24,363 bases of DNA, from IMG/VR virus record IMGVR_UViG_3300032309_000007, positions 1 through 24,363 of that record. One strand, written 5' to 3'. The position numbers were made by a program, and so were the translations under genes. Below the pieces are notes generated by a model, which was given only the letters and a program-made list of their open reading frames with translations, did not search any database and was not told where the DNA came from. Below are positions 1-22,633 of this stretch, piece after piece. This stretch comes from a virus. Taxonomy: Duplodnaviria > Caudoviricetes. Position 1 is the stretch's first letter. Every line of letters starts with the position of its first letter.

Positions 1-510
1 ACGACCAACACCACCAAATACCTGACCGACCAAGTACTCGATCTGGTCTGGGGTTGGGCTGATAACACCCTGTTTAAACTCTGTACCACCACTTAGCCGG
101 TTGATGCCGTATGCAAGAGCCTCGGTAATTCCAGAAGCATTCTGAGATTTACGTGTATAGCCCGGGGTTGGCACTAGGCTGTTAATGTCCTCACGGGCGA
201 TTGGCTTGCCGGTGAAGTCTTTGTTTTCAGCCAGTGCCACGATTGGGTCAGCGATAGTGGGTGCCAAGGTCTGCACGAATGTCGCACTACCCAATGGGTT
301 GAATCCGTCGATAATCATGTTGGCTGTTTCAAATACGCTCTTGCCAACGTTTTTGTCATCGGACATTGCAAATTCCATCACACGACGACCAAAACCGGGG
401 ATGATGTTGTAGCCAAGAGGCATCGGCACCGCAAGGTATTTGCCATCGCCGTAAGGAATGATGAACGACTTATCTTTAACAAAGTCGGGAACCTCGTCAT
501 CATCAAGACC
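1..510 (-). other. LPD38-like C-terminal domain of the giant protein (partial)
   Basis: DDEVPDFVKDKSFIIPYGDGKYLAVPMPLGY...NPLGS...PTIADPIVALAENKDFTGKPI resembles the LPD38 pattern (P-x-P-x-G ... N-K-D-F-x-G-x-P-I) as I recall it. Confidence 0.7.
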
Positions 511-3500
511 AGCCATCGCTAGAAGAACCGCCTGCATTAGTCCGAGGGTAATACCACCCATGACAATCTTCTTACCAGTTGGGGATAGTTTCCCATCAGG
601 TGTAAACAGTGTCTCTGCGATACGTGTCGTTCCCTGAACAGATGCATTAAAGAACGCATACAGGGTTTGGAAGTTCCTTGACATCGCACCGGTACGGTTA
701 AAGTTTACGGTGATATTCTTGGCAAGACTTGCCGCTTTCTCCTTAGACATACCCTTATCAAGGGCATTCTTATAGACCGATACCCGGATAGCGTTTTCAA
801 TTGCATCGTTAAAGTCTGACAGCCAACGCATGACTGCCTTGCCTTTGCCTTTGAGTGGCTTACCGGACTTGAAATCTTCTAAGTCTTTTTGGAGTTGTTC
901 GGCACGACTTTGAGAATCCTCGAACAGATCTCTATACCCTGTCTTGCCACCCTCTAATTCAAACTCTTCAAATATATTTGCCCACTTAGAATCAGCAGGC
1001 AGACCCTGACGCTGACGGCGAAGGTCAGAATAGATATCCTTAATCGATCCCAAGGCATCAGAGATAATCTTACGTTCATTACCTTTTAACGGTGTGCTTT
1101 GAAGGTTCAGTACAGCACCACCAATATCACGCATAAGGTTATAGATACCGAACGCAGGGTTGTACTGGGTATTCACAGAGGCAAAGAACCTTGTTGCTTT
1201 ACCTACCGCATTGATTGTGCCTTTGTAGTAGTCACCGGCTGTGCCCATCATCTTGATCGCTTCTGCTTGTTGCTGTGCGTCTAGATTCTTAAGCGTGGTT
1301 GCCATACGCATTGCACGTTCATCGTTCTTATTGAAACCAATGAACCGATCCTGACCGTTAATTCTTGTTACAAATATGTTTTCAGCCTTCGCCCAACTTG
1401 GCGGTATGCGCTGAACAACTAACCCAGTAGCCTTGTCTATGGTCTTTTGATATGGCCTAGATGACATCTCATTGATCATCTGATCTGCTTCGTCAGGATC
1501 AATACCAATACCAATCAATTCATTGCGGAGTGTCTGTTTATTTACCTTGCCCGGATCAATGACCCCCCAGAATCCTTTGTTGGGGTTGTTGAGAACCAAT
1601 CCGTACAATGCATTACCAACTCGGTTTTTCTCACCACGAACGATTGTTTTCTCACGTTGCATTGCAATGTTTGCAAGGACATCAACAACGCTACGGGTAG
1701 AACCCATACGGCGTTTTGTGGTTGATCCACGAATCTGATATCCACGACCAGTGCTGATTGGGTTGCCCTCCGTCTCCTCACGGAACAAGGGAACGTACTT
1801 CTTGTATGTTCTTTCCCAAGTGTCAATAGTCTTTTGATCTTCAAGACCATAGTCCACCATTAATTGGCGTGTTCCTTTGGTGATTGCATCTACATCTTTA
1901 GCGATTCTCTCAAGAGCATCACGTCTTGGAGCAGGCAAAGATTTCATGTAGTTAGCCGCCTCTTGATCAGACATCCCGGCGTTAGCATTTGGGTCAGGAT
2001 TAATTGATCTGATGTAGGAGTTAGCCTCAGGAGCATGACGGGCGAGAAGGTACTCATCCATCTGATCAAGAGATATGTCTGCACTTTCCATCTTCTTCAG
2101 CAATGGCTGAAGTTCTCGATCCATAAAGAATTTTATACGTGTAGCAGAACGTCCGTGGAAAAGTTCTTCTTTCAGGTAAGCATTCCATTTATCAGCAATG
2201 TCTTTTCCTGCACTACGAATTCCGTCTATTACCCGTTTTAAATCAATCTGCTTGTTTTGCAACAAGTAGATTAAGTTATCCCTAGACGTATTTGGATCAA
2301 CATTAAATGTGTTCTGCGGGATACGCTGTGCTGTATCTGTGTTGATTGGTTCTACAAAAGAATACTGAATACGCTTATCAGAAGGGTCAAACTCACCAGT
2401 ATTGCTTACAGCAGACTTAATTTGATTTGGAGAGAAAGCAACTAACTCAGTTAAATTTCTATCTTTGTACTGTAATATTCCATCAAACCCTTGTTTTGTT
2501 GCTCTGCTCTTAACCTCGTTTGTGATATAGCCTTTGTCTTCATAGGCTTTTTCCACAATCTGATCTGCTTTATCTCGGTCAACTCCAAGCCTTACCAAGG
2601 CTTCTATCATTGGATCTCTAGAAATAGATCCATCAATAACAAGCGGATTGGTTATATGAGCATAGACCGGGATAACATTTCCACCCTCTTCTTTTGCGTA
2701 TTCTTCAGCAAAATCTTGAGACGGAGTTAGATAAATACCATTACCTAACGAACCACCTTCTTTGCCAGCCTTGAAAAATTCAATGTCTTTAGTGGTTCCG
2801 TGATACAGAACTATTGGATTTCCTGATTCATCTATCAAGACACTGTTTTGATAAAACTTTTTAAATTCTGGTGAGGATGTATCAACTGGTTTAAACTCAT
2901 CACGAATTGATAACTTCTTAACTCCAAGTGTCCCTGCCTTGGTGGGTGCAATCTCTGTAACAGGAGAAGCCTCAAGTACCTTTGACGGCTTGATTACTTT
3001 AACCTCGGATGGCTTTATTTGAACACGACCATCGCCTGCCACTACATTCATTCCACGGATAGGCTCAACAAACTCTTGTGGCATGGACGGGGCACGGCCT
3101 GAGAATATAGAGTTTCCATAACGACGCTCAGGTTGATTCTGTACGTACATCGTCACAATAGACATTGCATCATCTTGTGGGGAAACTATTAGAGAGTTTC
3201 TGCCGTCATAGATGATGAACTTATCGCCCTCTTTGAATATCCGATTGTATTTCTGTGCCGTGGTTTGAGCAGTCTTTACAATCTTCTCAAGCAATTCCTC
3301 TGCACCACCGGGGATGCGGGATGGATCAGACAACACACGATTTAATATGTGATTGGCACCATAGGACTGAGGACGGCGCATACGCTCATTATCTAACTCA
3401 GGCACTAGGTCATTGTGCGTACCTACTAACATACGGATAGGTTTGCCACCAAGTCTTTCGGGCATGAAACCAAGTATGCCGTTGGGGTTGCCACCAACAT

Positions 3501-6500
3501 CAGGGATCAAAGATGTGGACGGCTCAATTGATCCAAGTGCTATGGAATAACGAATGTCGTTGTTATCACGGGCGAACGTGCCAATGTTGCCAATAGCAGA
3601 CTTTATTTGGTTTGGATCGTAGACGGCGAAGTTTTTAACTCCAGCCTCTTTTACATAAAAACTATCGTGACCATTTAATTTTATGGCTTGCTGAACCAGT
3701 TCATCTTCAATATAGTTCCAAACACCAGAAGTCAGTTTTCTTTGGATATCGATGTCTCGAAGCGTGTAGTTTGGAGCAATCTTTCTAACGGAATCAACAA
3801 CTTCTTTAACATGATCTGTGTTTTCGTAATCAAAAGGATTTTCTGCTCGAACATAAAGTGGCATTATGTTTTGACCGCTAGGCAACATGACTTTGATTTT
3901 TTCACGAATTAAGTCTGCAACTTGAGGTTCAATAAAATCAAGTTTATATAATCTGTCAGAATCCCTTTGGTTTTGAATTGCTGCGTCACGAATCACCTTG
4001 GAAATTTCTTTGTTTTTGTACAACTCTGATGCCGATTCGCTAACAATTTTTAATCTTTGTTCCGGAGTAAAAATCTCTTGGAACATTTCCTTAATCATGT
4101 AATCTTCTGATGCTCCAGAAAATTGATACGCAAAACCCGGAAATTCAGTTACAAAAATTGCGTTGGCTTGTTTTGGCTCAAACTCAGTAATGTCCCGAGC
4201 CGTACCGTGATACATGACTTTGGGAGAGCCGTCTTCATTCCTGATTGTGCTATCACCAAACCACTGTTTAAACTCAGGCGTGTCGATCTGGCGCAGAGAA
4301 TACTTGCGGTCACCAATTTGGATCTTGCCTTCCTCAGGACGCTCTTCTACTTCCTGACGGGTGCCACGGGAGATAACCGGGACATCTGCGCCAAGCACAA
4401 CAGCCATCCCCATATCCGGTATGGCGTATCCATCGTAGCCTGCGTCAATTACAGAGGATTCAAATGCGTTGGCATCGAACTGTCCGTCAGGGGTACGAGC
4501 CGCACTTGATAAGGCTTGTGCTTCTGGGCTGGGGCCTAATAGGTTGTTTAAACGTTGTATATGGACTTCGTTGCCCAGACCTGCTTCTGGCATCGGCATA
4601 CGTCCATTGGGATACGGGATATAGAAATAAGCCCGTTCACGTATACGGGGGTCAGTCGATTCAGAAAGACGCTGTGCCTCTGCGCCCTTGATGCCCGTTC
4701 CGTACATGGAACCGGCAAGACTATCTACTCGTTGCTTTCCGTAGTGGACTGCGTCGTAGGATTGGGCGCTTGGTTGTTGTTCTCGTATTGAGATACCACT
4801 GCCAATGCCGGATCTGTCGATAGGTTCATCAGGTCTAAAGGCGATTCTTGGTCGCCAGTTGATTGTCCCGTCTCCTGCGAGGTCGAACCTCGTTGGAGGG
4901 AACTGATCTCGTAGAAGTTGCGCTTCTTGTAATCGTCCTCTGTTGCGGAGCGAATCAACATATTGATCTCCATCCGGGTACTTGACCCAATCATTTGCTG
5001 TAGATGTGAACTGAACGTTCATGTCTACAAAATGTGCATCCTTAATTCCTGTAGCGGCTTCAGCAACATTAGCGGCATTTGCAAGAGCCTCTAATTGTTT
5101 CTTGTTCCACTTACCACTAAAGTTTACCAAACGAATACCGGGAACGCCATCAACTTTTACTTGTTGGAAGCCCGGAGCGATTGGATCGCCATTCTTATCT
5201 TTAGGCATGGCCTTCAGGTACTCGGTAAAGAACTCTACTGCTTTGCTCTGGTTGTTTAAACTCGGTGAAAGAATATCGATTGCGGAGTTTTTGCCAGATG
5301 CCAGAGGTCTTGTATTGATAACTTCCGTCTGTTGGAAGACGTAACCAACCATGTCCATAAAGGAATCTACAGATTCCGGAGAGCCTACTGCATCTACCTG
5401 AATCGATCCTTCCACGTAGGTTAGGTAAGCACCGATACCGTCAATACTTTGGGTAACCTTGATATTGGATATCTTGGCTAGGTCATTAATAATGTTCTGA
5501 GCGTCTTTGACGGGGATCTCTTTGCCCATCAAGCGGCCCGTCATAACAGATCCTGTGCCCGGGGCTAGTCCAATCGACACACGGCGGGTATTGCCGTTAA
5601 CGATATCTCGCACAAACTCGGGCTTCACGCCCATGAATTTCTGCATATTGACCCAACCCACGGCCTGAACCTCACGGGCTGTCCAACCACCGCCCATGTA
5701 CTTCTGACGGTTTAGATAGTTTGCAACGTCGTTATAGAAGTCCACCCCGTATTCGTACTGAGGTTCTCCAAATCGGGCTGTATCTATATCCAGTGAGTCA
5801 GCCGCATCCTTGCCAAACTTCTTGGATACAAACTCCTTGACTGTGTCATCTATAAAGCCAATATCTCGCTGTGCCCATACATCGATGGCGGCAGGCTGAC
5901 GACCTTCTTTCTTGTCTCCCATAACTGTACGGAGAGACTTGCCTAGTTCGCTATCCACAAAGTCCAGTAACTTGGCACCGATACCGCCCTCAGGAACTTC
6001 TCCCTTGAGCGCTGCCACCAGAGACTTCTCGTTTAAACCGGCTTTCTTGATGCGTAACTTGTTCTCGGCTATATCCGAAGCCCGTAGGACATCAGTGAAT
6101 CCCTTGGTGGGACTAGCCCGTTGTTGGGATAAAAGCCACGCTAGAGAGAATTCTGAAGCCCGATCCCCAAATACCGGGGTAAAGAAGTCATTAAGTTGCT
6201 GATACCAACCACGGGCATCCTCAATCTCAGGAACAGACATCGTGTTCTGTACACGCTCTTTCCAATCCTGTGGGGTGATCTTGCCTATGATTAACTTTTC
6301 TTTGCCCTTACCAAATACCAATCGGTCATTGGAGGGGGCACCCACGCCCTCTGCACGACCTAGGCGGCGGCGAAGTCTACCTTCTGCGTCCTCAGGGGTT
6401 ACGTACTGAGCCAGTGGGCTAGTGGGTTCTTGAAGAGAGAACTTTGTCTCTTCAATAAAGTCTGGGTCGGTAAACTGATTAAGGCGGGAATTTAATTCGC

Positions 6501-9500
6501 CAATATCGTTGTAGTCTGGTTCCCTGCTCAGCGCTTGACGGGCAAAGGCTTCCATCTCACGGTTTAAACGATTACCAAGTTTGGTGGCTGCTGTTTTGGC
6601 TCGACTATACCCGCCAACATTTACTCGATCATCAGCCGCTTGAACACGGCGATGCAAATCAATCAAAGACTGGGGAGGGTCAATTTGATTAAATTTTCCA
6701 GCCGCTGCCCTACGTGCCTCAAGCATTGCCTTACTTGCTTCAAGCGAGTACTTTTGCTCCCCAGCAACTGCCGCACCGGGGCCGGTTAAGGCGCCTTCCT
6801 CAACTCGTGTAAACACATCGTTGGCGGTCTGGAAGCCAGATCCACGGAACGCATTACCTAGAGCCTCAAAGAATGTTTTGACTTTGCGGAACAGTGCCCC
6901 GATCATTCCTGATGGTGGCTTGGTCTGATCGAAGTCTGAGAAGGCATCAGCGATGGCCTCTTCAATCTGAGAATCTTTATCAAGACTGCCATACCGCTGT
7001 TCTATGTTGTACTTCTTTATCCACTCAGACTTGGCTTTATTCTCAAGAACACGCCATTGATCAGGTGTAAAGAATCCCAAATCCTTTAGGGCATGGAGTG
7101 TCTCGTGACGTGCGGCACGGATTGGGTTTTCCGAATCTAGGGCAATCTCAATGAGTTTGGCAACATAGGATCCATTAGCAGAAGACACGCCTTCCCTAAC
7201 GTTTAAACCTTTTGCCTTAGCGTCATTCAGGACTGCCATGACTTCGTTGAACTTGGGGGTGCCTGCTGGTGGCTGGGTATAAAAGCCCATCGGCCTGCCG
7301 TCTGGGCCATCAATAATGAACCCTTTAACTGACAGGCTTTCAACAATGTTTAAACGTACTTGTTGCAGCCCTAACTTGTCCAAGGTTGCCCGCAGACGTT
7401 TATTGATCTCCGGTACTTCTTTCTCAACCTCAGGCATAAAGCGGACAGTAATCCCAACTGCACGGAGTTTCTCAGCCGCCGCTTGTGCGTCTCCGGTGAT
7501 CTTTATCTGTACCGGTGCGGCAAGGGGAGGAAGACCGGCTTGTTGTCTAAACCGGCGCTCTTTTTCTCTTGTAGCCTCAGCGTATAAACGACGTGGAGTG
7601 GCACCTCGGATGGTGCCTGTCGGGAGTTGTTGCTTACCGAAAGGCTCCTCTAGGGCACCTTCTACGTCAGATCTTGGGGCGGCATTAATTACCCCATCTA
7701 ACTGCTCATCACTCAGACTTTGGATAGCGGCAATGTCAGCATCTTCCTTAGTCGGATAGGTGCCAATTGGTTTGCCGTTATCAAACAGGGTGTAGCCAGT
7801 ACGAGACCTAGGCTTTGCTTTGGCTTTAATTTGCAGAGGCTGCGATACAGACTCAATCTTGCTGTTTAAATTGCCTAAGTTGACTTCCTGCTTCTGGATC
7901 TTTGCTTGAATTCTCTTGTACTCAGGAGAGCCTTCCTCTCCAACCTCTTGGAGTTGGCCTAGTCTTTGTTTATCTAACTCAATACCTGAGGAGACTCTGT
8001 CAATCTCCCCAGTTATCCGAGCAACCTTGGTCTCACGGTTTTGATTGGCTTTAGCGACCAGATCTTCGGCAGCGCCCAGAGTAGGACGAAACTGTTTAAA
8101 CGTTCCGTCTTCAGAGACTATGTCGTAGCCAACGGCCTCAGACTCCATGAAGTCACCACGGCGAATGTCTGGCCCCGGAACCACGCTCTTTGGAACAAAT
8201 GGGACAGAGATATTGATACTAGTCCCTACGGTGCCCCTTGTCGGAGAAGCCGATAAATCACCACGCTGAATCGCCGTCTGTAATAAACGTTCCGCATCTT
8301 TAGGGTCTGTAAGCCCCGAGAAGTCCATAATGTCCTGAACCGTAGCCGCTTTCCCCTGTGGCCCAGTGTTGAGGACAGTTTTCTTGAGACCATTAATTGT
8401 TTTGTCGTATGTTTTTTCATCAAAAACTGTCGCAACGCTTCCTGTTGGAAGTTTTGTCAACTCCGTAAAGTCAGGCAAAGCGGAGAGGGATTGTTGCGCC
8501 GCAAACAATTGTTGAGCGGTCATCCTTCTAACGTCAGGTGTACCTGTTGTTCGGGTTAAGAATTCTGCAAACCCCGGATCTTGAACATCAATATTCTTGG
8601 AAACTGCAACGTCAAAAATATTTCTAGGTGTGACAGATACGGTTTCGTCATACCCCATCTTCCTGCCAAGCATTTCGCTAATAGCATTCTTATTGGGAGC
8701 AAGATCGTATAGATCCTCAACCGTGAACTGCTGAATAGCAGGCAAGCCACGCTCTTTACGTGCCTTATTAATATCGTTGACAACCTTGGGGCCAAGATCA
8801 TTTGCATCAAAACGAATGCCAAGCGGGTCTTGTAAGTTAACTTCTTGGGCTGGGGCACCAAGCAATAGAACAGGCTTTCCTGTAGCGGGATCTATCTGAG
8901 GTGTAGCCCCCAGTGCTCCCATAGCCTGATTCATTTTTTCTTGTTCTTGGGCGGCAATAACTGCCTGCTGTTGCTGTGCAATCCTTTGCTGTTCAGCCTC
9001 TTCTTTTAGTCTTTCTTGGGTCTTGAGTTGTTCATATAACTGACCCCGTTTACCCCGGGTAGCCAACTCAATAGCACCCTGAGCAAAGGCACCAATCGAT
9101 GCACCCATAGCCGCATCACCAAGAGCAGACTCTCCCACCTCTAGATTCGGGTTATAGATACCCTTGGCAATAAGGTCTTGGGCAACGTTTGCCATGCCCT
9201 CTTGAAGACCCTCTACGCCGCCGGTAGCGACCATCCGCTTTGCACTGTTAAATAGCCCCGGTGCAATAAGGTCAGCCTGAGACTTAGGAACCCCACGAAG
9301 AATTTGTTCGATTGGCCTAGTTAAAAGTTTAACTGGCGCTAACTCGCTGAATCCAACCGCTGTACCACCCAGTTGAGCCGCAAACTCCTGTCCTGCTGTA
9401 GCGTCTGCCTGACCTTCTAGACGGGCTTGTTCGGCACGAGATCTTGCCTCTTCTGCACCGACACTACCGGCTTGACCTAACTTAGCGGCAAGACCAATAC

Positions 9501-12365: not shown

Positions 12366-12375
12366 GGTCTTGTCC

Positions 12376-12837
12376 TTAAAAAGTAATGGTCATCGCATGG
12401 GCAGTGTGTTTGTAGCCCATACGAGATAAAAGTTTTGATACACGCAGATCAGTGGCTGTTGTGATGTTTAAACGCTTTACACCACGACGTTTTAATTCTT
12501 CATGAACGAAGTTAATCAATCTTTTGCCCATGCCGTTTCGATGTTCTTTAAGAACAAAAACGGTGTCTTCTTGAGCAATTAGATCTTGATTGTGCATATC
12601 GTTCGTTATGTATACGTTGCTATAGCCGCAAACATTTCCCTCATGTCTTAATACAAAAGTTAAAAGCCAACCACCTTCACTTGCCTTTACATACTCATCA
12701 AGCCTTGGGTTATAAGGAGAGACTTTAACTCCTGCCTCTTCCAACCTATCGGTCATTTCTGAATAATGCTGTCTATATAAAGGCTCTAATTCTTTGTAAG
12801 TACTAGCAAACTTCTCAATTGTTATCTCATAACTCAT
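12376..12837 (-). CDS. GNAT-family acetyltransferase, 153 aa
   Basis: VFVLKEHRNGMGKRLI (acetyl-CoA-binding motif A), LKRRGVKRL, and KLLSRMGY (motif B). Confidence 0.85.
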   Translation of the reverse strand: MSYEITIEKFASTYKELEPLYRQHYSEMTDRLEEAGVKVSPYNPRLDEYVKASEGGWLLTFVLRHEGNVCGYSNVYITNDMHNQDLIAQEDTVFVLKEHRNGMGKRLINFVHEELKRRGVKRLNITTATDLRVSKLLSRMGYKHTAHAMTITF

Positions 12838-14942
12838 GCTGGCATGAATTTATTTGGCTTAATTGCAGGAGCCTGTTTCTTGGTTCCAGTTCTTTCTTTT
12901 CTAATATCAGCCATCATTTCATATAGTCTCTTTGCTCCTGCCTTGCTAGACCCATTACCTATATGAGATACCACATCGGCAGGAATTACAAATTCTCCAT
13001 CAGCAAGACGGGCAGGTTGTTTATCGCCAATCACTGCCGGAATGTCATCACTCATACCATCTCCACCGCCTGAAAGGAAACGGGGAGATCCACCCTCAGC
13101 AAAGTTCTTTTCTACGGTTTCAAGCATTGTGTCATCACGACCCCTAAACTTGTAATAGTCCTCTCCAACCAGAGGACGGGACTTGGGACGACCACCTTGT
13201 TTAAACGCTGTCAGTCCACCAACAGCGTAGTAGTTGTCTTCTTTATCAAAGTCCACACTACGCATTGAATCCATTAGACCTCCAGCCGCCGCTAAATATG
13301 GATCACGAGCGGTAAAGGTCGGTTTGAAATATGCGGCTTCACTTGTATCCCCGGCTGGCCTGTCATAAGCACCAGTTTGTGGGTTGTATTCAAAGTCATA
13401 CGGGCGAATCATGGCTGTTGACTTAGGAGCCTCCAACGGCTCCGGTTGCATGGCTGGGGCCAAAGCGGAATAACCATATTTAAACGCTTGACCAGTGGTT
13501 AGTCCGGGCTGGGCAACAGTGGCGGCTGAAATGTCTACATTAGGTGTGTAAGTTGCCGGGGTTGCGGTTGGAAAAACTGGACTTCCAGAAGGAAGCGGTG
13601 CTCCACCAAATCCTTGTGTGCCCAAATTAACGTTTGGTGGGGTAATATTTGAAGGTGTCATACCCCCTTGTAATGACGACTCCATTCCGGGTATTGGATT
13701 GGTCTGTAATGCCGCATCAAGTGGGGTGGGTGGCGGATTACTAAGCATTGGAGAGCCTTGAGCAATAGTCTCTGGGGTTCCAGCAAGTCCAGAAGAACCA
13801 GCCAAGCCTTCACCTAAACCAGCCCCGCCATAAGCGCCTAGACCAGCCATAATGCCCTTCTTGAGACTTCCTGTACCTAAAGCAGTGGCACCACCCACAG
13901 CAACGCCAGTACCGACTGCGCTGCTAGTACCTAATGCGTTACCAATTGCAGACCCGACTCCGGGGGCAAATGCGTTTAAACCAAGTCCAATTAATGCTGG
14001 CAGCAACGCTTTTAGGTTAAACGCTTCGGGATAACCCGTATTTGGGTTAATGGTCATGCTTGTGCCATTTGAACGGGCTAGAGCCTGTAATCCTGCGACT
14101 TCCCGTGGGTTCATGTGAACCAACATTGAGTCGCCACCTCGACCATAAGCCTCACCGCCTTGTGCGTAATTCATAATTTGTCCACCTTGTTGATAACCCG
14201 TGACCCTGCCACCGTCATACATTCCAGCATCATTACCTGTACCAGTACCTTCACTTCCGCCGCTTGGGTCTCCCTGACCGGGGCCATCATTAGGCCCCAT
14301 ACCTCCACCACCTCCACCTCCACCAAAAGCAGAGCCATCACCTCCAAAACCAGTACCAGTACCGCCAGTGGCGGCAGATGCAGCAGCGGCAGCGGCTGCG
14401 GCGGCTGACGCATCAGCGTCAGTGACACCTGAAACATCCATAGCGGCATCTACTGCCTGCTGTGCCGCTAGTGATTGATTGGCCTCTTGTTCTGCTTGGG
14501 CTTGTTCTTGTGCAAAAGTAGTAAGCATTGCATCTAGAACATCTTGTGCCTGACCTGGGGCGACCGCTCCCGGAGAGATACTCTGAACAGATATATCCGG
14601 GGGTGGAACAGCAATCCCCGGTGGGGGAGGAGAGAATTGACTAATCTGAGCAACCTCTACTGGGGCTGGCTCTTGTTTTTCAGTGAAAGCATTAATTCCC
14701 ATTCTACCAAGGCTAATAGCAGCCAATGGGACAGAAAGCGCTGGAACAGCCAAACCAGCGATTGTTGCAGGGGAAAGACCAATCGCCCCTACTGGCGTAT
14801 TTACCTGTGGGGTCCCCGCAATAGGGCTAAATGCCGTGTCTAAAACCCCAGATTGAGCGGGGGCAGTTCCAATAGAAAACCCTGTGCTACCCCCTGACTG
14901 AAATCTGGGGATAGATCTTGGGTAAGCGTTTAAACCGTTCAT
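12834..14942 (-). CDS. Gly/Ala/Pro-rich internal virion protein, 702 aa
   Basis: Long ORF containing GRGGDSMLVHMNPREV...TINPNTGYPE, glycine-zipper-like hydrophobic segments, and C-terminal GDGMSDDIPA...RLADGEFVIPADVV..IGNGS..AGAKRL. It carries about nine xxxGG motifs. Confidence 0.75.
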   Translation of the reverse strand: MNGLNAYPRSIPRFQSGGSTGFSIGTAPAQSGVLDTAFSPIAGTPQVNTPVGAIGLSPATIAGLAVPALSVPLAAISLGRMGINAFTEKQEPAPVEVAQISQFSPPPPGIAVPPPDISVQSISPGAVAPGQAQDVLDAMLTTFAQEQAQAEQEANQSLAAQQAVDAAMDVSGVTDADASAAAAAAAAASAATGGTGTGFGGDGSAFGGGGGGGGMGPNDGPGQGDPSGGSEGTGTGNDAGMYDGGRVTGYQQGGQIMNYAQGGEAYGRGGDSMLVHMNPREVAGLQALARSNGTSMTINPNTGYPEAFNLKALLPALIGLGLNAFAPGVGSAIGNALGTSSAVGTGVAVGGATALGTGSLKKGIMAGLGAYGGAGLGEGLAGSSGLAGTPETIAQGSPMLSNPPPTPLDAALQTNPIPGMESSLQGGMTPSNITPPNVNLGTQGFGGAPLPSGSPVFPTATPATYTPNVDISAATVAQPGLTTGQAFKYGYSALAPAMQPEPLEAPKSTAMIRPYDFEYNPQTGAYDRPAGDTSEAAYFKPTFTARDPYLAAAGGLMDSMRSVDFDKEDNYYAVGGLTAFKQGGRPKSRPLVGEDYYKFRGRDDTMLETVEKNFAEGGSPRFLSGGGDGMSDDIPAVIGDKQPARLADGEFVIPADVVSHIGNGSSKAGAKRLYEMMADIRKERTGTKKQAPAIKPNKFMPA

Positions 14943-14977
14943 GGGGGTATTATCCTGATTTTGTCAAGTCAAGTCTA
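14943..14977 (-). promoter_or_regulatory. Candidate promoter/RBS in the intergenic gap
   Basis: Minus strand reads TAGACTTGACTTGACAAAATCAGGATAATACCCCC-ATG. It has tandem TTGAC boxes and GATAAT (14949-14954); TAGACT to GATAAT spacing is 17 nt. AGGA could also serve as a Shine-Dalgarno. Confidence 0.3.
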
Positions 14978-15343
14978 TGGGACTATGGTAACTGATACTG
15001 TCCCCAAAGAGCCAGAAGCAGATACTCCAAGCGGACGGGCAGGTGGGCCTAGAATAATTGAGACCGTTCCCAAAGAACCAGAAGCGGATACTCCGAGCAA
15101 GTAAGCGATGTTGGGAACAACAATTTTTAAGTCCTCTCCTACCCTAAATACGGTGTTGTTCCTAAGCCCGTACCCAGAGGTAGGTAAATTAAGCAGTTGT
15201 AGCCCATCGAGAACTAATGGGGTTGTGGAGTCTAGTTGGTTAAAGTAGAGGCGAAGTATACGAATCAGATCTGTGTGGTATCTCTGGTCGTATTCAACAG
15301 GCGGCAAAGGTAGCGCTGGCGCCTGAAACCTCTCCATTGCCAT
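14975..15343 (-). CDS. Small tail-associated structural protein, 122 aa
   Basis: Coupled to the nozzle gene (TAATG). Contains PALPLPPVEYD...LRLYFNQLD and a duplicated C-terminal LGVSASGSLGTVS. Confidence 0.75.
   Translation of the reverse strand: MAMERFQAPALPLPPVEYDQRYHTDLIRILRLYFNQLDSTTPLVLDGLQLLNLPTSGYGLRNNTVFRVGEDLKIVVPNIAYLLGVSASGSLGTVSIILGPPARPLGVSASGSLGTVSVTIVP
14997..15097. repeat. Imperfect 35-nt direct repeat, period 66 nt (LGVSASGSLGTV x2)
   Basis: actgtccccaaagagccagaagcagatactccaag (14997-15031) versus accgttcccaaagaaccagaagcggatactccgag (15063-15097). Differences are at synonymous positions. Confidence 0.85.
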
Positions 15344-17250
15344 TAGCGTTTACCATCCACACGAGCATCTAGTCTAGGCACACCCAACTGCCAATTAACA
15401 CCTAAGTCCTCTGAACTAATCTTTAACGCCATCTGACGGGCACGGGCACGGATAAATACCTGATCCGTGTAAACATCCACCGCAGTCTCGATTACCGGCT
15501 TAGAGTCCGTTGTACCCACAGGTTGAAAGCCTGACCCGGGGAAGTTACGGGGGCGAATCTGTAGTGTTATCTCTGGTTGTGCGGCAGTAGACTTAGCAAA
15601 GTTAATATCAGGCAGCATACGACGGGTCAGCATAAACTGCTCACCATCAGCAATATCAAAGTCAGATGATTGAATATAAGCCGTTATAGGAGCGCCATCG
15701 TCGTCTAAACCGTTTTCTTGGTCGTATAAGACCCCAACATTACTTCCACTAGGCGTATTGACTGCCATAGGATACTCACGCAACGGACTATCTAACCATG
15801 CGGTACGGTCAATATTTCCGTAGTACCAAATACGCTCAAGGTAGTTATAGATCACATAACGGTTGGGGTACGAAGAAGTAGAACTTGGGTATATCCACCA
15901 AACTTCGTTCCAACCCTCGTTTGAGCCAGAAATAATAGTGTCGGCCTGACTAAGATTAATATCTTGAAAGATAAACTGTCGCAAAGTGCAAGGGAGCGTT
16001 TCAACACGGCCTGAATAAACATAAAACTTTTCGTTTCCCATCCAGTAAGTTATGTTATTTACGGTTACAGCAGCCCGTGGGCTGAGAATAGAAATATTAT
16101 CTGCTAGTTCCTGTAACCCAAATACATCTGTTGTTCCAAGGTATTGGAAAGAATACAGATGCGATTCTGTCCACACCAAAATCTCTTGTCTGGTTGGTAG
16201 AGCACGAACAATCCTTGACCCTCTAGAAACTCTTATAAATCCCGCAGAGTTGGTAGGCGTCGGAGTCCATTGACTCGGATTATCCTGATCAGCCCACCTA
16301 ATAAGAAGGGGGTCAAAATCAGCCACACTAGTAGAACCAAAAGGCACACTCCCAAAAGCGAGAAGATGTTTATCGTTCTGTGATACAAGAACCTGCATAG
16401 CCTTGGTTGGTACTGCATTGGCGTCGTATCCATCTGCTGTAGCCTTTGCTGAAAGAAGAATTGCATTGGTCTGAAGGGCGGTTCCGGGGTTAACGGAAGA
16501 CCCACGCTCCCAATAATAAATAGCGCCATCTCGAATATTTGCAACTAAGTCATTATCAAAGTTGTCATACCACCAATCAATTCCATTTATTGCAACGGGT
16601 GTTGTGCCACCAAGACCCCACTCAAGACGACTCCAACCGTCTGTACCCCAACCGTAGCCAAATGTACCCCCACCCGGGCCAACATTTATCTGATACTTGC
16701 CAATGGTAGAAGCACCACCGTTTCCTGAATCAGAAGCATTAGCCGTTACCGGAACGACAATTGTGTATGCATTGACGTTAATTACTGTGGCAATCTCAAA
16801 CCCTGCATCAGTATTTAGTATTGCTGCCGTTACGTTACCGCCCAAAGAAGCAGCACCGGTAAACTGAACATAATTACCTACAGATGCGGGAGCGCCTGTA
16901 TCTAAAACAGTAACGGTAGAAGACCCATTAGTTGCAGTAAATGTTACGTCTCCAGCAGCCGTTGTGGCTTGGAGGGGGGTTATATCATAAAAATAACCGC
17001 CCGCTTCTATATACAGTTTTAAGTTTGTCCCAACGGCTAATAGGTTGTCCCCATAAGTTGTTACATAGTTAAATAGTTGTCGGCAAGTTCCAAGAAAGGT
17101 ATTGGGCGTCTGTTTAAGCCAGCCACCAATCTTTTGGGGAAAGCCAGAAAGAAAGCGAATTTTGTCGCCCTCAAACCAGCCACCCTCGTTAGAGTAGTTG
17201 GTCTGATCTCGGTTTATTCCCGGCTTAAATCTAAGTGCTATAAATGGCAT
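15343..17250 (-). CDS. Tail nozzle / tail tubular protein B-like (P22 gp10-like stabilisation protein), 635 aa
   Basis: Size, beta-rich composition, motifs (KIGGW, LIRWADQD, EVWWIYP, YVIYNY..WYYG...RTAW, WQLG..R.D...DGKR) and position just upstream of the ejection genes. Confidence 0.75.
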   Translation of the reverse strand: MPFIALRFKPGINRDQTNYSNEGGWFEGDKIRFLSGFPQKIGGWLKQTPNTFLGTCRQLFNYVTTYGDNLLAVGTNLKLYIEAGGYFYDITPLQATTAAGDVTFTATNGSSTVTVLDTGAPASVGNYVQFTGAASLGGNVTAAILNTDAGFEIATVINVNAYTIVVPVTANASDSGNGGASTIGKYQINVGPGGGTFGYGWGTDGWSRLEWGLGGTTPVAINGIDWWYDNFDNDLVANIRDGAIYYWERGSSVNPGTALQTNAILLSAKATADGYDANAVPTKAMQVLVSQNDKHLLAFGSVPFGSTSVADFDPLLIRWADQDNPSQWTPTPTNSAGFIRVSRGSRIVRALPTRQEILVWTESHLYSFQYLGTTDVFGLQELADNISILSPRAAVTVNNITYWMGNEKFYVYSGRVETLPCTLRQFIFQDINLSQADTIISGSNEGWNEVWWIYPSSTSSYPNRYVIYNYLERIWYYGNIDRTAWLDSPLREYPMAVNTPSGSNVGVLYDQENGLDDDGAPITAYIQSSDFDIADGEQFMLTRRMLPDINFAKSTAAQPEITLQIRPRNFPGSGFQPVGTTDSKPVIETAVDVYTDQVFIRARARQMALKISSEDLGVNWQLGVPRLDARVDGKR

Positions 17251-17257
17251 GGCATCC

Positions 17258-17722
17258 TCACGCTACAAGTCCCGGCAGATATACCGTTTTACCGCCCTGC
17301 TTGGTGGCGGTCAAGTTTTGCTTCTTGAGGTTGGCAGGGTCGTAGGAGACATGAACCCAGCCAGAATCAGGCACTCCGGGGGTATAGAATTCAAGGATTA
17401 ACTGGGTGTACTCAAGGTTGTCCATAATCCATATGGCTAGGTCTGCGTTGGGGATTCCGGGGATTTCGATGTCCGAGGCTTGGCCTCTGCAATGATCACT
17501 GGTTTTCGAGCCACCGACTTTGGCGTTGACTTCCGGGTGGCGGTAGCCGGAGTTGACCTTGACCCCCGCCTTAAAATGGTCCCTAACAGGCTGAAGAACT
17601 TTTTCACACAGTATTTTAAGACTCTCAATTTCGGCCTCCCCGGGCGTGTTGTCCATGTCATGACGCAGTGCAGTATCAGACTTCACCATTTCAGACAGAG
17701 TAAAGTTAGCGGTCAGGTTCAT
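17258..17722 (-). CDS. Endolysin, peptidase M15 family (Zn-dependent), 154 aa
   Basis: NSGYR...N..VGG...SDH..GQASDI...WVHVS gives the His/Asp/His Zn ligands of M15 peptidases. Adjacent to the holin. Confidence 0.9.
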   Translation of the reverse strand: MNLTANFTLSEMVKSDTALRHDMDNTPGEAEIESLKILCEKVLQPVRDHFKAGVKVNSGYRHPEVNAKVGGSKTSDHCRGQASDIEIPGIPNADLAIWIMDNLEYTQLILEFYTPGVPDSGWVHVSYDPANLKKQNLTATKQGGKTVYLPGLVA

Positions 17723-18159
17723 TTCTTCTTGTCCAAAATCTCATCAAGTTGTAAGGATTTTTCCTTACTGCCTTGACTTGACCCAAAGTAGTAGCCGAGC
17801 ACCATAGTGACCGCAGAGGTCAGCGCACCTAGCACATAGATAATTATGTCCTTAGCATCTGACTTGACTTCCGCAAAAACAATTATTCCAAACAAAAGAA
17901 AGGTCAGACCTACCGTACCCAAGGCCAGCACGGGTGTAACGATCTTATTTATCGTCGGCGCAAACTCGCTGGTGGCAATCTCAATCTCCCGCTTACGGGC
18001 AGAGTCCATCTCTTTTACGTGGGCCTCAAGTTCAGCCAACTGACCCTTCTGAGCCATCTCCATGAGCGTGGCTTGCGCTTTTGCCTTGGCCTCTGGGTCA
18101 GGCAGAACCTTATCCAGAACCTTTTCTCCGATGCTTAATAGTGCAGCGATTGGTAACAT
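17719..18159 (-). CDS. Holin-like membrane protein, 146 aa
   Basis: N-terminal amphipathic helix (IGEKVLDKVLPD), two TM segments, YYFGSS motif, ATGA overlap with the endolysin. Confidence 0.75.
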   Translation of the reverse strand: MLPIAALLSIGEKVLDKVLPDPEAKAKAQATLMEMAQKGQLAELEAHVKEMDSARKREIEIATSEFAPTINKIVTPVLALGTVGLTFLLFGIIVFAEVKSDAKDIIIYVLGALTSAVTMVLGYYFGSSQGSKEKSLQLDEILDKKK

Positions 18160-18161
18160 AT

Positions 18162-18308
18162 TTATCCCCTTGTTGCTAAATACAGACCGACGTTGCTAAA
18201 GGCATAACCGGCAAAAACTATCGCCATCGAAAAGTTTCCTTTAGTGCCCTGTTCAAAACATATGTAAGCGTAAATACATCCCACTAAAATAATCAGCCAA
18301 GGACTCAT
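18162..18308 (-). CDS. Small 2-TM membrane protein, 48 aa (below the ORF-track cutoff)
   Basis: My translation is MSPWLIILVGCIYAYICFEQGTKGNFSMAIVFAGYAFSNVGLYLATRG*. It fills the gap between the phosphoesterase and the holin. Confidence 0.75.
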   Translation of the reverse strand: MSPWLIILVGCIYAYICFEQGTKGNFSMAIVFAGYAFSNVGLYLATRG

Positions 18309-18311
18309 TGT

Positions 18312-19253
18312 TTAAACTCTCTGTCCACGGAAGTAAGCCACGCCGTCAAGCACTTCACAAAGTTCTGGCGGCAATAATTTCCCATTCTCAAACGTCAATA
18401 CAGCAAAGCCTGAGCACCAATTAACCGGGTTCATTTCTGTATATACAAATTGCTCACCATAAGGTTCAGCAAGCGTCCCGGCGTCTACCCCCCAGCGACG
18501 CCCGTCATAATCTGAAAAGGGGGTGGTTTTTAACTGATGTAAGTGACCAGTTACTATCGACCGCCCCGATTTCAGGGCATTGTTCCACGTACTATGAACG
18601 CCGTTATGGTAGCGATGCTTGACAACAACTGATCCGTTAATATCAACCCGCCACCCGTGGTGCCAGCCCGGGAAGTAATCCCACAGAGAAAGCATATCCC
18701 CTATCTCAGGGGCGTTAACGGCGATGTACCGATGGAGCCGAACGTCGTGATTACCTATCGTCCACAGGAACACAGCGTTCTTTGTAGCGTTACGCACCTC
18801 ATCAAGACGATCTCTGCAAGCCTCAATTTCTTTCTTTGGTGTCGGCGGGTTTGTACCCATCAAAGGCTCGTGCCTTGAAATCCTAGCGCCATCCACAACA
18901 TCCCCGTTCATGATGACCGTTTTAGGCTTGTATTCTTTTATTAGGTTAACAAATGCCTTGTGCGCTACTGTAGATTCACCGGGCCAGTAGTGTGCGTCTG
19001 ATCCAATAAACACCATTCCATTTTCAACCGTATGTTCTATAACTCTTCGGTCTTCAGGTATGTAAGTTTTTTGATGAAGTTTTTGTGATGCAGCATAGGC
19101 TGGCAAAGCAATTCCCTGTTCTACTTGAATCTTGGCTTTGCGACTAGCAAGCGCTCTAATAGACATACCAAGTTGTTTAGCAGCCATTTGGGTGCTGCCA
19201 GACCTCTTCATTGCCGCAATTATTTCTTCGTCAGATACTTTTTTTAACGCCAC
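18312..19253 (-). CDS. Calcineurin-like metallophosphoesterase with N-terminal HTH-like segment, 313 aa
   Basis: All five motifs are present: SDAH, GDVVD, GNHD, KH, GHLH. The N-terminal TQMAAKQLGMSIRAL is HTH-like. Confidence 0.85.
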   Translation of the reverse strand: MALKKVSDEEIIAAMKRSGSTQMAAKQLGMSIRALASRKAKIQVEQGIALPAYAASQKLHQKTYIPEDRRVIEHTVENGMVFIGSDAHYWPGESTVAHKAFVNLIKEYKPKTVIMNGDVVDGARISRHEPLMGTNPPTPKKEIEACRDRLDEVRNATKNAVFLWTIGNHDVRLHRYIAVNAPEIGDMLSLWDYFPGWHHGWRVDINGSVVVKHRYHNGVHSTWNNALKSGRSIVTGHLHQLKTTPFSDYDGRRWGVDAGTLAEPYGEQFVYTEMNPVNWCSGFAVLTFENGKLLPPELCEVLDGVAYFRGQRV

Positions 19254-19674
19254 GGGGTTTCCTTGGTAGTTTTATTTCATCAATAGGGCCATGAGAACTT
19301 GAGTCATATAAACAAGCAATCTCAACCGCCTCCTTCGGAGAAGCCCCATAATGCATCGCCGCTATGGCAAAGTTGGCTCCCGTCCCTATACTCCAAAAAT
19401 CATTTTTAATTCTTGCCGGAATAATTGAACTCTCATATATCCACAAACCATCGTGCTTTAAAGAAATTACCGTAACCTCGGTATCAGAATCCAAATCACC
19501 ACCGGACTCCATTACTTGATAGAACTTTAAAATCTTGTCCCAATCACCACAGGCACCGTAAATACAATCCTTGCCCTGCCGTAACTTTTCTACTAAATAA
19601 AAACTATCATCACCGCTTACCATGCTATCTGCGGCAATCTCGCCCGTAGAAAACTTAGCGGCAATGGTGGTCAT
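19231..19674 (-). CDS. HslV/proteasome-beta-like Ntn-hydrolase (Thr protease), 147 aa
   Basis: M-TTIAA (Thr nucleophile after Met removal), AADS, VEK, GACGD, SIGTGANFAIAAM, AVEIA...D..S.G. Confidence 0.75.
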   Translation of the reverse strand: MTTIAAKFSTGEIAADSMVSGDDSFYLVEKLRQGKDCIYGACGDWDKILKFYQVMESGGDLDSDTEVTVISLKHDGLWIYESSIIPARIKNDFWSIGTGANFAIAAMHYGASPKEAVEIACLYDSSSHGPIDEIKLPRKPRGVKKSI

Positions 19675-20132
19675 TACAGATGTCCCTTAGCAATGTAATA
19701 AACAGTTACCATGAAGAACGCTATGGTGAAGCACCAAATCTTTAAAAGCCTTAACTTAGCCAGATCCCTACCAAATTCATCCTTGCCTTCCTTGGCTTCT
19801 TTCATCTGGCGCTCTTTAATCGCCTGAATCTCAGACCATTCCTTCTCAGCCTCAAACTTGCCGTACCGCTCTATTAACTGATCCTTTAATTCTTTTTCTG
19901 CTTCTTTAATTTGCTTTAATCTGCGCCACTCAGCAAAGGCGGTCATAATTGTGGTGTCGCCTTGAACAACTCGTTGTCTTTGTTTAAACGCCTGCTTGGC
20001 CTGTAACTCGGCTACCCCTAACTTCTGGATGTCATCAACAGCGGACGACAACTCCTTGCCCGACTGGATAGCAGACTTTATGCCCTTCGCCGCACCCTTT
20101 GCCGCAGTGAGTATTGGATCTATATCTGCCAA
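19674..20132 (-). CDS. Hypothetical coiled-coil protein with C-terminal TM helix, 152 aa
   Basis: TTG start with AGGA upstream, charged helical body, and C-terminal IWCFTIAFFMVTVYYI. Confidence 0.65.
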   Translation of the reverse strand: MADIDPILTAAKGAAKGIKSAIQSGKELSSAVDDIQKLGVAELQAKQAFKQRQRVVQGDTTIMTAFAEWRRLKQIKEAEKELKDQLIERYGKFEAEKEWSEIQAIKERQMKEAKEGKDEFGRDLAKLRLLKIWCFTIAFFMVTVYYIAKGHL

Positions 20133-20147
20133 AGTGCATTCCTATTC

Positions 20148-20366
20148 CTAAGTCTGGCCCCAAGTCTTGGCTCCGGCTTTTGGTACTGATGTAGCCCATA
20201 CAGATACAGACTTTTTTAACTTTAGGGGTGCGCCGCAGTCAGAGCAAGTATCAGCCGCCAACTCAGCCTCATCTAAGTCATACCCACAAGCGGCACAGAC
20301 ATGGACTTCTTCTGATTTACAGACTTTTACCCCGTCTACCTTATGCGCTTCAATTACTGTTTTCAT
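20148..20366 (-). CDS. Zinc-ribbon protein, 72 aa
   Basis: CAAC...CSDCG. The likely start is ATG 20366, preceded by GGAGA and 1 nt after the oxygenase stop, rather than 20399. Confidence 0.7.
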   Translation of the reverse strand: MKTVIEAHKVDGVKVCKSEEVHVCAACGYDLDEAELAADTCSDCGAPLKLKKSVSVWATSVPKAGAKTWGQT

Positions 20367-20367
20367 A

Positions 20368-20946: not shown

Positions 20947-21227
20947 TACTGTTTTCCTTCAGCAAATACATTTATAAAAACTGTATTGTCCTCAACCGCT
21001 TCTATTTCATGCCATTCTCCAGCCACAAGATTTATAGGCTGTGTGTTTTTGTCAACTAAAACTTCTTTTCCTTCTTTACGAATTACACAAGACCCAGAGC
21101 AACAAAAAGTTGCATGAGCATAAATGTGGCTGTGTTGGGGTAGCCCTTCACCTTTGTTAGCATGAAACACATTTATTTGTGCTCCATCATAGGTAAAATT
21201 ATGTTGGGATGTTATTGCTACTACCAT
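20946..21227 (-). CDS. Cupin-fold protein, 93 aa
   Basis: GEGLPQHSHIYAH..C..GS...LVAGEWHEIEA: the two cupin motifs with His ligands. Confidence 0.8.
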   Translation of the reverse strand: MVVAITSQHNFTYDGAQINVFHANKGEGLPQHSHIYAHATFCCSGSCVIRKEGKEVLVDKNTQPINLVAGEWHEIEAVEDNTVFINVFAEGKQ

Positions 21228-21656: not shown

Positions 21657-21667
21657 TTTATTTCTCC

Positions 21668-22618: not shown

Positions 22619-22633
22619 TTTTTACTCCTTAAA

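What the first reader, a model, noticed from the sequence alone, without database searches (positions are those of the whole stretch)
72..19989. GTTTAAAC palindrome occurs 18 times (about 0.5 expected), in all three reading frames
Seen at 72, 2889, 4266, 4546, 5254, 6031, 6562, 7201, 7348, 8094, 11064, 11194, 12466, 13199, 13974, 14928, 18310 and 19982. With my rough estimate of 46% GC, a zero-order model gives about 0.5 copies. Seven are read as x-Phe-Lys, ten as (R/S/G)-Leu-Asn and one as Val-stop, so a protein motif does not explain them. One-off variants also recur (GTGTAAAC at 600, 6807, 9674, 15467). I found none in 19990-24363, the fibre/accessory end. Inference: a highly iterated palindrome, analogous to cyanobacterial HIP1. 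It could be a binding site for a DNA-organising, packaging or protective protein, or the footprint of a methylation-linked mutational process.
Basis: partly seen in the sequence, partly recalled or inferred. Interest (0 to 1): 0.8.

Follow-up and report, generated by a model that had tools for sequence, protein, structure and literature searches.

The report
Phage self-tag read by SprT protein
This freshwater phage carries the 8-letter palindrome GTTTAAAC about 30 times more often than chance and close relatives keep the copies unchanged; in unrelated phages and plasmids the same word or a one-letter variant goes with one small zinc-protease gene, whose product likely binds these sites and may guard the element's own DNA (that gene was not seen in this partial genome).

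Summary
The 18 sites are real (0.6 expected; 17 in genes against 1.4 after synonymous-codon shuffling), fill 17 of 21 compatible coding positions and are kept in relatives at about 88% DNA identity. They are not a host-chromosome HIP1-type word: bacterial chromosomes are nearly empty of it except in 30-50 kb blocks, and no adenine methyltransferase of two Pfam families was found. The word tracks one mobile gene, an early SprT-like zincin with a C-terminal KQxTR zinc ribbon: 8 of 8 near-complete motif-rich phages have it, 0 of 7 motif-poor ones; 11 of 11 hand-picked cultured phages/plasmids with an intact ribbon carry GTTTAAAC or GTTTACAC, 0 of 3 with a diverged ribbon; ribbon residues co-vary with the word (AA, AC, one CC case); a site often sits just upstream of the gene. 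The window lacks its early region, so the gene is inferred here (its ejection genes are closest to gene-bearing phages). Binding is unshown. Best guess: a DNA-anchored protease that guards the element; main rival: a stoperator-like repressor. Not found in print in nine searches.

The parts
72..79 (.). GTTTAAAC site 1, in giant ejection gene (x-Phe-Lys)
2889..2896 (.). GTTTAAAC site 2 (x-Phe-Lys); lies in a 559-base segment missing from some population contigs
4266..4273 (.). GTTTAAAC site 3 (x-Phe-Lys)
4546..4553 (.). GTTTAAAC site 4 (x-Leu-Asn)
5254..5261 (.). GTTTAAAC site 5 (x-Leu-Asn)
6031..6038 (.). GTTTAAAC site 6 (x-Leu-Asn); kept in L680, L696
6562..6569 (.). GTTTAAAC site 7 (x-Leu-Asn); lies in a 327-base segment missing from some population contigs
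7201..7208 (.). GTTTAAAC site 8 (x-Leu-Asn); kept in L680, L696
7348..7355 (.). GTTTAAAC site 9 (x-Leu-Asn); kept in L680, L696
8094..8101 (.). GTTTAAAC site 10 (x-Phe-Lys); kept in L680, L696
11064..11071 (.). GTTTAAAC site 11 (x-Phe-Lys, 516-aa gene); kept in L680, L696
11194..11201 (.). GTTTAAAC site 12 (x-Leu-Asn, 516-aa gene); kept in L680, L696
12466..12473 (.). GTTTAAAC site 13 (x-Leu-Asn, GNAT acetyltransferase gene); motif-poor relatives read GTTTAATC here
13199..13206 (.). GTTTAAAC site 14 (x-Phe-Lys, 702-aa gene); kept in L680, L696, L021, L022
13974..13981 (.). GTTTAAAC site 15 (x-Leu-Asn, 702-aa gene); kept in L680, L696, L021, L022
14928..14935 (.). GTTTAAAC site 16 (codons 3-5 of the 702-aa gene); the only site near a start codon
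18310..18317 (.). GTTTAAAC site 17, overlapping the stop codon of the metallophosphoesterase gene (Val-stop)
19982..19989 (.). GTTTAAAC site 18 (x-Phe-Lys, 152-aa gene); relatives show GTTTAAAT, GTTTGAAT, CTTTAAAA at this place
600..607 (-). one-off variant GTTTACAC (coding strand)
6807..6814 (-). one-off variant GTTTACAC; kept in L680, L696
9674..9681 (-). one-off variant GTTTACAC; kept in L680, L696
15467..15474 (-). one-off variant GTTTACAC in the 635-aa tail gene; varies among relatives irrespective of motif status, probably not selected
1..9900 (-). giant (>3300 aa, 3' end cut off) ART-PolyVal x3 / LPD38 virion protein; closest to giants of motif-rich phages G004, G008, G001, G043; holds 10 sites
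1..14942 (-). site-dense arm (ejection-protein genes): 16 of 18 sites
14943..24363 (-). site-poor arm (tail, lysis, accessory, fibre genes), several genes about 90% identical in protein to motif-poor relatives G010-G015; 2 sites; holds 3 of the 4 unused compatible positions

Best explanation
The 18 palindromes are selected DNA sites that are likely bound by a small protein of the phage itself, an early SprT-like zinc protease with a C-terminal KQxTR zinc ribbon (inferred to lie in the missing part of this genome), which would anchor along the element's own DNA to guard it. Shown: the enrichment, its conservation, its restriction to mobile elements, and the gene-word association in other phages, prophage-sized blocks and plasmids. 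Inferred: (1) the ribbon reads the word directly (about 0.8); (2) this phage encodes the gene (about 0.8); (3) the protein represses its own gene through an upstream site; (4) purpose: sites every 1-4 kb, position-independent and near-saturating here, act as docking points from which the protease clips or displaces host proteins that travel along or coat foreign DNA (translocating nucleases, SMC-type defence, silencers, cross-linked proteins). Step 4 is the weakest; no target is known.
For: Selection on DNA: 17 vs 1.37; 10/13 [RSGC]-Leu-Asn and 7/8 x-Phe-Lys-[LPHQR] peptides use the word, and these peptides are 2.4-3 times in excess; synonymous codons in sites 27 same/0 changed vs 2140/770 outside, p 5e-4, L680; 30/0 vs 1975/722, L696; 17/21 compatible positions used vs 2/20, 2/21, 1/15 in motif-poor kin. 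Gene link: one protein cluster shared by all three motif-rich lineages and no motif-poor genome; hit in 52 of 75 motif-first loci; 8/8 vs 0/7 near-complete genomes; prediction met in 11 of 11 cultured records with intact ribbon, 0 of 3 with diverged ribbon; gene-first loci 273 vs 13.7 (prokaryote genomes), 556 vs 36, 1811 vs 58, 119 vs 2.3 (viral). Direct reading: only the ribbon is invariant, and it persists as a 55-aa stand-alone protein; R-M-T after the hairpin Arg goes with GTTTACAC only (0 A, 53 C, six ribbon types), R-x-S/A mostly with GTTTAAAC, one TTRYLK ribbon with GTGTACAC x9; the choice is not coding opportunity (Yang 0/14 A, 11/22 C; R26L 11/36 A, 1/35 C); a site just upstream of the gene in Mica, Persinger, ep3, Alexa, Yang, pMGMAQ and 73 of 76 group-B loci. 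Guard role: spacing more even than random in Yang, Crosby, R26L, G060-C25, G065 (p <= 0.001); 1 of 22 window sites near a start; present on plasmids; HExxH kept in most copies; fold nearest SPRTN.
Against: The gene was not seen in the window or in any close relative: 0 of 9 short kin contigs, two scans for longer kin found nothing; motif-rich fragments G002, G003, G005, G006, G008, G009, G046, G049, G052 also show no hit (15-73% complete). No binding data. In group B, where sites are densest (2-5 per kb), the HExxH or the whole protease domain is lost and sites cluster in the early arm, so protease activity is not needed there. Window spacing is not significantly even (CV 0.73, p 0.10) and G043, G045 are clumped. 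Only 33 of 80 prokaryote loci pass p<1e-3 singly; ep3 is weak (4 vs 0.93). Samples are not phylogenetically independent, cultured records were hand-picked (14 of 239), and several scan patterns required KKQxTR. Zeta1847 has 17 of 22 sites near starts, and the Liebe/Maureen plaque difference points to lysogeny rather than guarding.
Confidence: 0.42

Rival explanations
1. Same protein-site pair, but the protein is a stoperator-like repressor: it silences or times transcription at many sites (immunity in lysogens, early-gene shut-off in lytic phages), with the protease domain serving induction or being dispensable.
For: Site upstream of its own gene; intergenic excess in most genomes and 17 of 22 sites near starts in Zeta1847; early-arm clustering and protease loss in group B; cluster AZ phages have no identified repressor, and Liebe (N-terminally truncated gene plus three other changes) forms clear plaques while Maureen forms turbid ones (bioRxiv 10.1101/2025.05.26.655371, section 14); G001 encodes an integrase-family protein.
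Against: Stoperators are asymmetric, intergenic and oriented with transcription (PMC9283540); here the main word is palindromic, 0 of 22 window sites are intergenic, and Crosby has 19 sense/10 antisense. The word is nearly invariant across phages of several phyla, whereas immunity sites are expected to diversify (inference). Plasmids carry gene and sites.
Confidence: 0.32
2. A conserved host protein reads the word (Chi-like exploitation), and the SprT-like gene is a partner or a hitch-hiker of the same lifestyle.
For: Precedent: lambdoid phages enrich host Chi sites (PMC12315714, abstract). Near-identical word across lineages is easy to explain with one conserved reader.
Against: Hosts span Actinomycetota, Alpha-, Beta-, Gammaproteobacteria and Planctomycetota; their chromosomes are almost empty of the word; the word changes with the ribbon and vanishes with it in phages of the same host species (Dismas vs cluster EH kin).
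Confidence: 0.08
3. The sites mark places where the DNA is nicked, cut or recombined (as for nick-associated words of some podophages) by an element-encoded enzyme.
For: Raised by an earlier scan note (e1-3304979); even spacing in some genomes. Nick words are recalled, not tested.
Against: The associated protein has no nuclease fold; sites occur on plasmids and in chromosomal blocks; siphoviruses, myoviruses and podoviruses share them.
Confidence: 0.06
4. HIP1-like footprint of a methylation-linked or other mutational process, without a binding function.
For: Density like HIP1 (one per 1131 bp in Synechocystis, PMC6604393); near-saturation of compatible positions could arise by conversion; Yang has an annotated DNA methyltransferase beside the gene.
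Confidence: 0.05

Closest known systems
Stoperators and immunity repressor of cluster A mycobacteriophages (L5, TipsytheTRex; PMC9283540, passages)
   Same: 20 or more copies of one short word across a phage genome, read by one phage protein; autoregulation plausible
   Different: 13-bp asymmetric, intergenic, oriented with transcription, HTH repressor; here an 8-bp mostly palindromic word deep in coding DNA, a zinc ribbon fused to a zincin, same word across phyla and on plasmids
HIP1 of cyanobacteria (PMC6604393, passages)
   Same: octameric palindrome, about one per 1.1-1.2 kb, in coding DNA, maintained by selection
   Different: HIP1 fills the host chromosome and holds a methylated core; this word is confined to mobile elements, no matching adenine methyltransferase found, and has a candidate reader
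SprT-like protease of cluster AZ/EB/EH actinophages (Lizalica gp46; bioRxiv 10.1101/2025.05.26.655371 section 14)
   Same: [quoted passage not shown]
   Different: the preprint names no binding site (0 hits for TTTACAC) and no genome-wide word; function untested
SPRTN/Wss1 DNA-dependent proteases (PDB 6MDW)
   Same: nearest fold of the model (E 2.6e-3); HExxH zincin plus small Zn-binding DNA-contacting domain
   Different: they recognise DNA structure at cross-links (established knowledge), not a sequence; the ribbon here has no significant PDB match
Chi-rich lambdoid phages (PMC12315714, abstract)
   Same: phage genomes enriched for an octamer under selection
   Different: Chi is a host word read by host RecBCD and anti-correlates with a phage module; here the word correlates with a phage gene and is absent from hosts
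KorA/KorB multi-operator regulons of IncP plasmids (recalled, not tested)
   Same: element-wide sites bound by an element-encoded, autoregulated protein
   Different: longer operators, HTH/ParB proteins, no protease

Membership tests
HIP1-type highly iterated palindrome | strongly over-represented short palindrome in coding DNA, all frames | tested here: met
HIP1-type highly iterated palindrome | iterated over the host chromosome | tested here: not met
   20 bacterial genomes bearing the gene: word rare genome-wide and gathered in 30-50 kb blocks where positions were listed; the window phage's own host is unknown
HIP1-type highly iterated palindrome | contains the target of a cognate methyltransferase | tested here: inconclusive
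   0 of 18 records with PF01555 or PF02086; other MTase families and host enzymes not searched; modification not testable
Cluster A stoperators | >20 copies of one site across the phage genome | tested here: met
   18+4 in a partial genome; 25-58 in near-complete motif-rich records
Cluster A stoperators | asymmetric site oriented with transcription | tested here: not met
   main word palindromic; asymmetric variant 19 sense/10 antisense in Crosby, 3/7 in G045, though 9/1-9/2 in G001 and Yang
Cluster A stoperators | in promoters and short intergenic gaps | tested here: not met
   window 0 of 22 intergenic, 1 near a start; met in Zeta1847 (15 of 22 intergenic)
Cluster A stoperators | HTH immunity repressor as reader | tested here: not met
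   associated protein is a zincin plus zinc ribbon
Cluster A stoperators | blocks transcription and confers immunity | not testable with these tools
   indirect hint only (Liebe/Maureen)
SprT/SPRTN-like zincin (candidate reader) | HExxH zincin fold | tested here: met
   PF10263 weak hits, HELAH motif, model pLDDT 93, nearest 6MDW; lost in group B
SprT/SPRTN-like zincin (candidate reader) | gene present in this phage | tested here: inconclusive
   absent from the 24-kb window, which lacks the early region; no longer kin found
SprT/SPRTN-like zincin (candidate reader) | DNA-dependent protease activity; sequence-specific binding | not testable with these tools
   needs biochemistry
Chi-type host recombination site | asymmetric word abundant in the host chromosome | tested here: not met
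   palindromic; rare in bacterial chromosomes

The most novel reading that the evidence does not exclude
A cross-phylum 'self barcode plus tethered protease' system of phages and plasmids: a 45-residue zinc ribbon with a readable AA/AC/CC specificity code plants a SPRTN-like protease every 1-4 kb along the element, where it destroys host motors or silencers that engage foreign DNA, and the element rewrites even its protein sequences to make room for the sites.
Probability: 0.3. Interest if true: 0.92.

Novelty: categorically new. Interest (0 to 1): 0.8.

Why it matters
It gives an iterated palindrome a concrete candidate reader, which HIP1 has lacked, and gives a common 'SprT-like protease' of more than 160 cultured phage records and 75 plasmid records a testable DNA site. 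If the guard reading holds it is a new kind of counter-defence (sequence-addressed proteolysis on self DNA); if the repressor reading holds it supplies the missing immunity repressor of cluster AZ/EH phages. Either way the word marks the extent of such elements in genomes, and the stand-alone 55-aa ribbon is a very small sequence-specific DNA binder with natural specificity variants. Cultured, harmless systems (Yang, Maureen/Liebe, Zeta1847, Crosby, R26L, pUT1) make it directly testable.

Tried and rejected
Peptide-motif or codon-bias origin: rejected. Host-wide HIP: rejected for 20 gene-bearing bacterial genomes. Adenine methyltransferase link: 0 of 18 records in two Pfam searches. Promoter/start association in the window: 1 of 22. 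GntR/HutC operator resemblance (recalled consensus): dropped; no such regulator cluster was shared among motif-rich genomes. Motif-first pair scan for GTGTACAC: 0 of 80 analysed loci had the gene, 14 had four or more copies, many in tight clusters (40 of 120 loci came without flanks and were not analysed); the CC variant therefore rests on one genome. G050 (13 sites) is a tandem array, G048 (7 vs control 6) is background. Linking the gene to this phage: two viral scans with the giant protein found no relative; metagenome kin L680/L696 end inside the giant gene; contigs resembling the G004 early cassette exist in the same runs but are not linked to the window. Variant tables from population contigs were cut (40 of 810 rows shown), so they were not used for site conservation. 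No RNA holder listed. Ribbon searches found no solved homologue or named family. The wide structural search and a dimer prediction were not obtained, so dimerisation is open. Alignment A3 was out of frame and ignored. [quoted passage not shown]
Full report
1. Observation. All 18 sites are at the stated coordinates; 0.63 are expected from dinucleotide shuffles, 0.59-1.03 from order-2/3 Markov models, and no other 8-mer palindrome exceeds two copies. Frames are as reported. With proteins and codon usage fixed, 500 synonymous shuffles give 1.37 in-gene sites (maximum 5) against 17 observed; the peptides able to hold the word are themselves 2.4-3 times in excess. The window uses 17 of 21 compatible coding positions, motif-poor kin 2/20, 2/21 and 1/15. 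Relatives at about 88% DNA identity keep 9 of 9 (L680) and 10 of 10 (L696) aligned sites where about 40% of 8-mers survive, with no synonymous change in 27 and 30 in-site codons. The phage population is held by 20 listed runs of 15 studies.

2. The window. It is the whole record (24,363 bases): the virion module of a podovirus distantly related to HTVC023P/HTVC027P, with a >3300-aa ART-PolyVal/LPD38 protein, ejection, tail, lysis and fibre genes. The replication and early regions are missing. It is a mosaic: the giant and 516-aa proteins are closest to motif-rich phages G004, G008, G001, G043, while the tail, lysis and accessory genes are mostly about 90% identical to motif-poor G010-G015.

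3. The word is patchy among kin and shared by strangers. Of 32 related records, G001-G009 are rich (for example 29 in 60 kb) and G010-G032 have 0-4. A three-site pattern found 75 viral loci in several unrelated groups, 49 of them a group of about 40-kb phages with mostly 2-5 sites per kb in the early arm. The extended consensus is YGTTTAAACR; GTTTACAC is the main near-cognate (29 vs 2.4 pooled over four motif-rich genomes, 16 vs 15 in motif-poor ones).

4. One gene travels with it. All-against-all comparison left one cluster present in all three motif-rich lineages and in no motif-poor genome: a 180-250-aa SprT-like zincin at the start of the early region. Its only invariant part is a C-terminal zinc ribbon, K-Q-x-T-R...C...R...CP; the HExxH is lost in some group-B copies and others are a 55-aa ribbon alone. 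A profile hit 52 of the 75 motif-first loci. Among near-complete genomes, 8 of 8 with dispersed sites have the gene and 0 of 7 without (G018, G019, G048, G050, HTVC023P, DSL-LC04, CRP-902) (kinship not corrected). Ten motif-rich fragments, the window among them, show no gene and are 15-73% complete where estimated.

5. Prediction tested. The protein has relatives in 164 phage and 75 plasmid records. I picked 14 across hosts. All 11 with an intact ribbon carry the word: Zeta1847 22, Yang 20, Crosby 41, 4A 13 (GTTTACAC; 0.05-0.22 expected), R26L 20, pMGMAQ 18, Alexa 8, Mica 7, pUT1 5, Persinger 4, ep3 4 (GTTTAAAC; ep3 weak, 0.93 expected). The three whose ribbon has lost KQxTR (Dismas, CN1, Psa21-HRN) have 0-1. 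Gene-first loci give 273 vs 13.7 sites in 80 prokaryote loci (33 pass p<1e-3 singly), 556 vs 36 in 80 viral loci (74), 1811 vs 58 in 76 of 80 group-B loci (76; four reused loci left out; many overlap the motif-first set) and 119 vs 2.3 in 11. Some scan patterns required the KKQxTR stretch.

6. It is not a host word. In 20 gene-bearing bacterial genomes the word has 15-71 strand hits per 3-10 Mb (230 in one AT-richer genome, control 283); where positions were listed they gather in blocks: 14 of 23 in 44 kb (G061), 12 of 14 in 48 kb (G066), 16 of 20 in 44 kb (G065), 20 and 18 in two blocks of G060 (prophage identity inferred). No PF01555 or PF02086 methyltransferase was found in 18 records.

7. 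Signs of direct reading. After the conserved Arg of the second strand, M-T goes with GTTTACAC only (0 A, 53 C, six ribbon types in actinobacterial and planctomycete elements), T-T with mixed or C use, x-S/x-A mostly with GTTTAAAC (243 of 274 loci parsed; Yang, I-T with C only, does not fit simply). One Sphingomonas element with a TTRYLK ribbon has nine GTGTACAC and no A or C word, while its nearest kin use GTTTACAC; a motif-first scan did not find further CC cases. The choice is not coding opportunity. A site lies 15-80 bases upstream of the gene in Mica, Persinger, ep3, Alexa, Yang and pMGMAQ and within -400..+30 in 73 of 76 group-B loci, but in only 2 of 80 and 0 of 11 loci of two other viral sets and 23 of 80 prokaryote loci. 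The model (pLDDT 93) is a zincin with a small strand-strand-helix ribbon; the nearest structure is SPRTN 6MDW at E 2.6e-3, none below 1e-3; the ribbon alone has no significant match.

8. What for. Spacing is more even than random in Yang, Crosby, R26L, G060-C25 and G065 (p <= 0.001), weakly in pMGMAQ and G060-C28, not in the window (p 0.10), and clumped in group B, G043 and G045. Window sites ignore gene starts (1 of 22), Zeta1847 sites favour them (17 of 22). End-to-end coverage, coding-depth saturation, plasmid occurrence and a conserved protease site make me prefer a DNA-anchored guard that removes host proteins engaging foreign DNA (0.42). A stoperator-like repressor is close behind (0.32): it fits autoregulation, group B, and the report that cluster AZ phages lack an identified repressor and that Liebe, with this gene truncated and three other changes, forms clear plaques where Maureen forms turbid ones (bioRxiv 10.1101/2025.05.26.655371, section 14 read whole). 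The two share the protein-site pairing (about 0.8) and may both be true in different lineages.

9. Known systems. Stoperators are 13-bp, asymmetric, intergenic and oriented (PMC9283540, passages); HIP1 is chromosomal and methylated (PMC6604393, passages); Chi-rich lambdoid phages use a host word (PMC12315714, abstract and outline). The cluster AZ preprint predicts a DNA-binding C-terminal domain but names no site (passages); the Microbacterium phage survey lists other repeats, with no hit for SprT or this word (PMC7302621, passages); one mycobacteriophage SprT-like gene is listed as toxic (PMC7474061, one passage; same family not checked). Nine searches found no description of the pairing; preprint supplements were not seen. 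Earlier notes of this scan reached the same pairing from other genomes; I read them after and count them as no independent support.

10. Verdict. Real, selected, element-specific and very probably the site of an element-encoded zinc-ribbon/SprT protein; presence of the gene in this phage, binding and function remain to be shown. Interest 0.8; categorically new if it is a guard, a new variant of multi-site repression if not.

Noticed in passing
window 1-24363: AGCT and CGCG are wholly absent (about 90 and 40 expected), CCWGG occurs once (14554) and GGCC is halved: strong restriction-site avoidance, shared with motif-poor kin and so separate from the palindrome.
   Followed up: partly
window 2350-2908 and 6455-6781: Population contigs from three runs each skip these segments of the giant ART-PolyVal/LPD38 gene: domain-sized gain/loss in the polyvalent protein; each segment holds one site.
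   Followed up: no
window about 14900-15300: Apparent mosaic junction: ejection genes follow the G004/G001 lineage, tail/lysis genes the G010-G015 lineage, which has a different replication module.
   Followed up: partly
L083:15310-18619 (G001), also G004, G007, G043, G045: The SprT-like gene is followed by a CbbQ/MoxR-type AAA ATPase and VWA genes in group A, but is next to amidoligase and glutamine amidotransferase genes in group B.
   Followed up: no
L081:7928-8734 and L083:8812-9042 (G001): A tyrosine-integrase-family gene and a LexA-like winged-helix gene in an HTVC023P-like virion lineage; may be temperate.
   Followed up: no
L548-L550 (G069 C2:9760-47413): Element with a variant ribbon and GTGTACAC x9, the only CC-type case found.
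   Followed up: partly
L205:18239-18509 (G050): Terminal tandem array of a 29-base unit containing GTTTAAAC in a phage without the gene.
   Followed up: no
L216 (Zeta1847); L254-L257 (R26L): Second repeated words: GGGCCTTT/GAAAGGCC about 20 times in Zeta1847; CGAGTTAT/TATAACTC 11-16 times in R26L; possibly terminators or promoters.
   Followed up: no
L522-L531 (Sphingomonad plasmid-like contigs): Nine of these ten loci have exactly one GTTTAAAC within 1.5 kb of the SprT-like gene; in pUT1 sites lie only in backbone, not in transposon cargo.
   Followed up: partly
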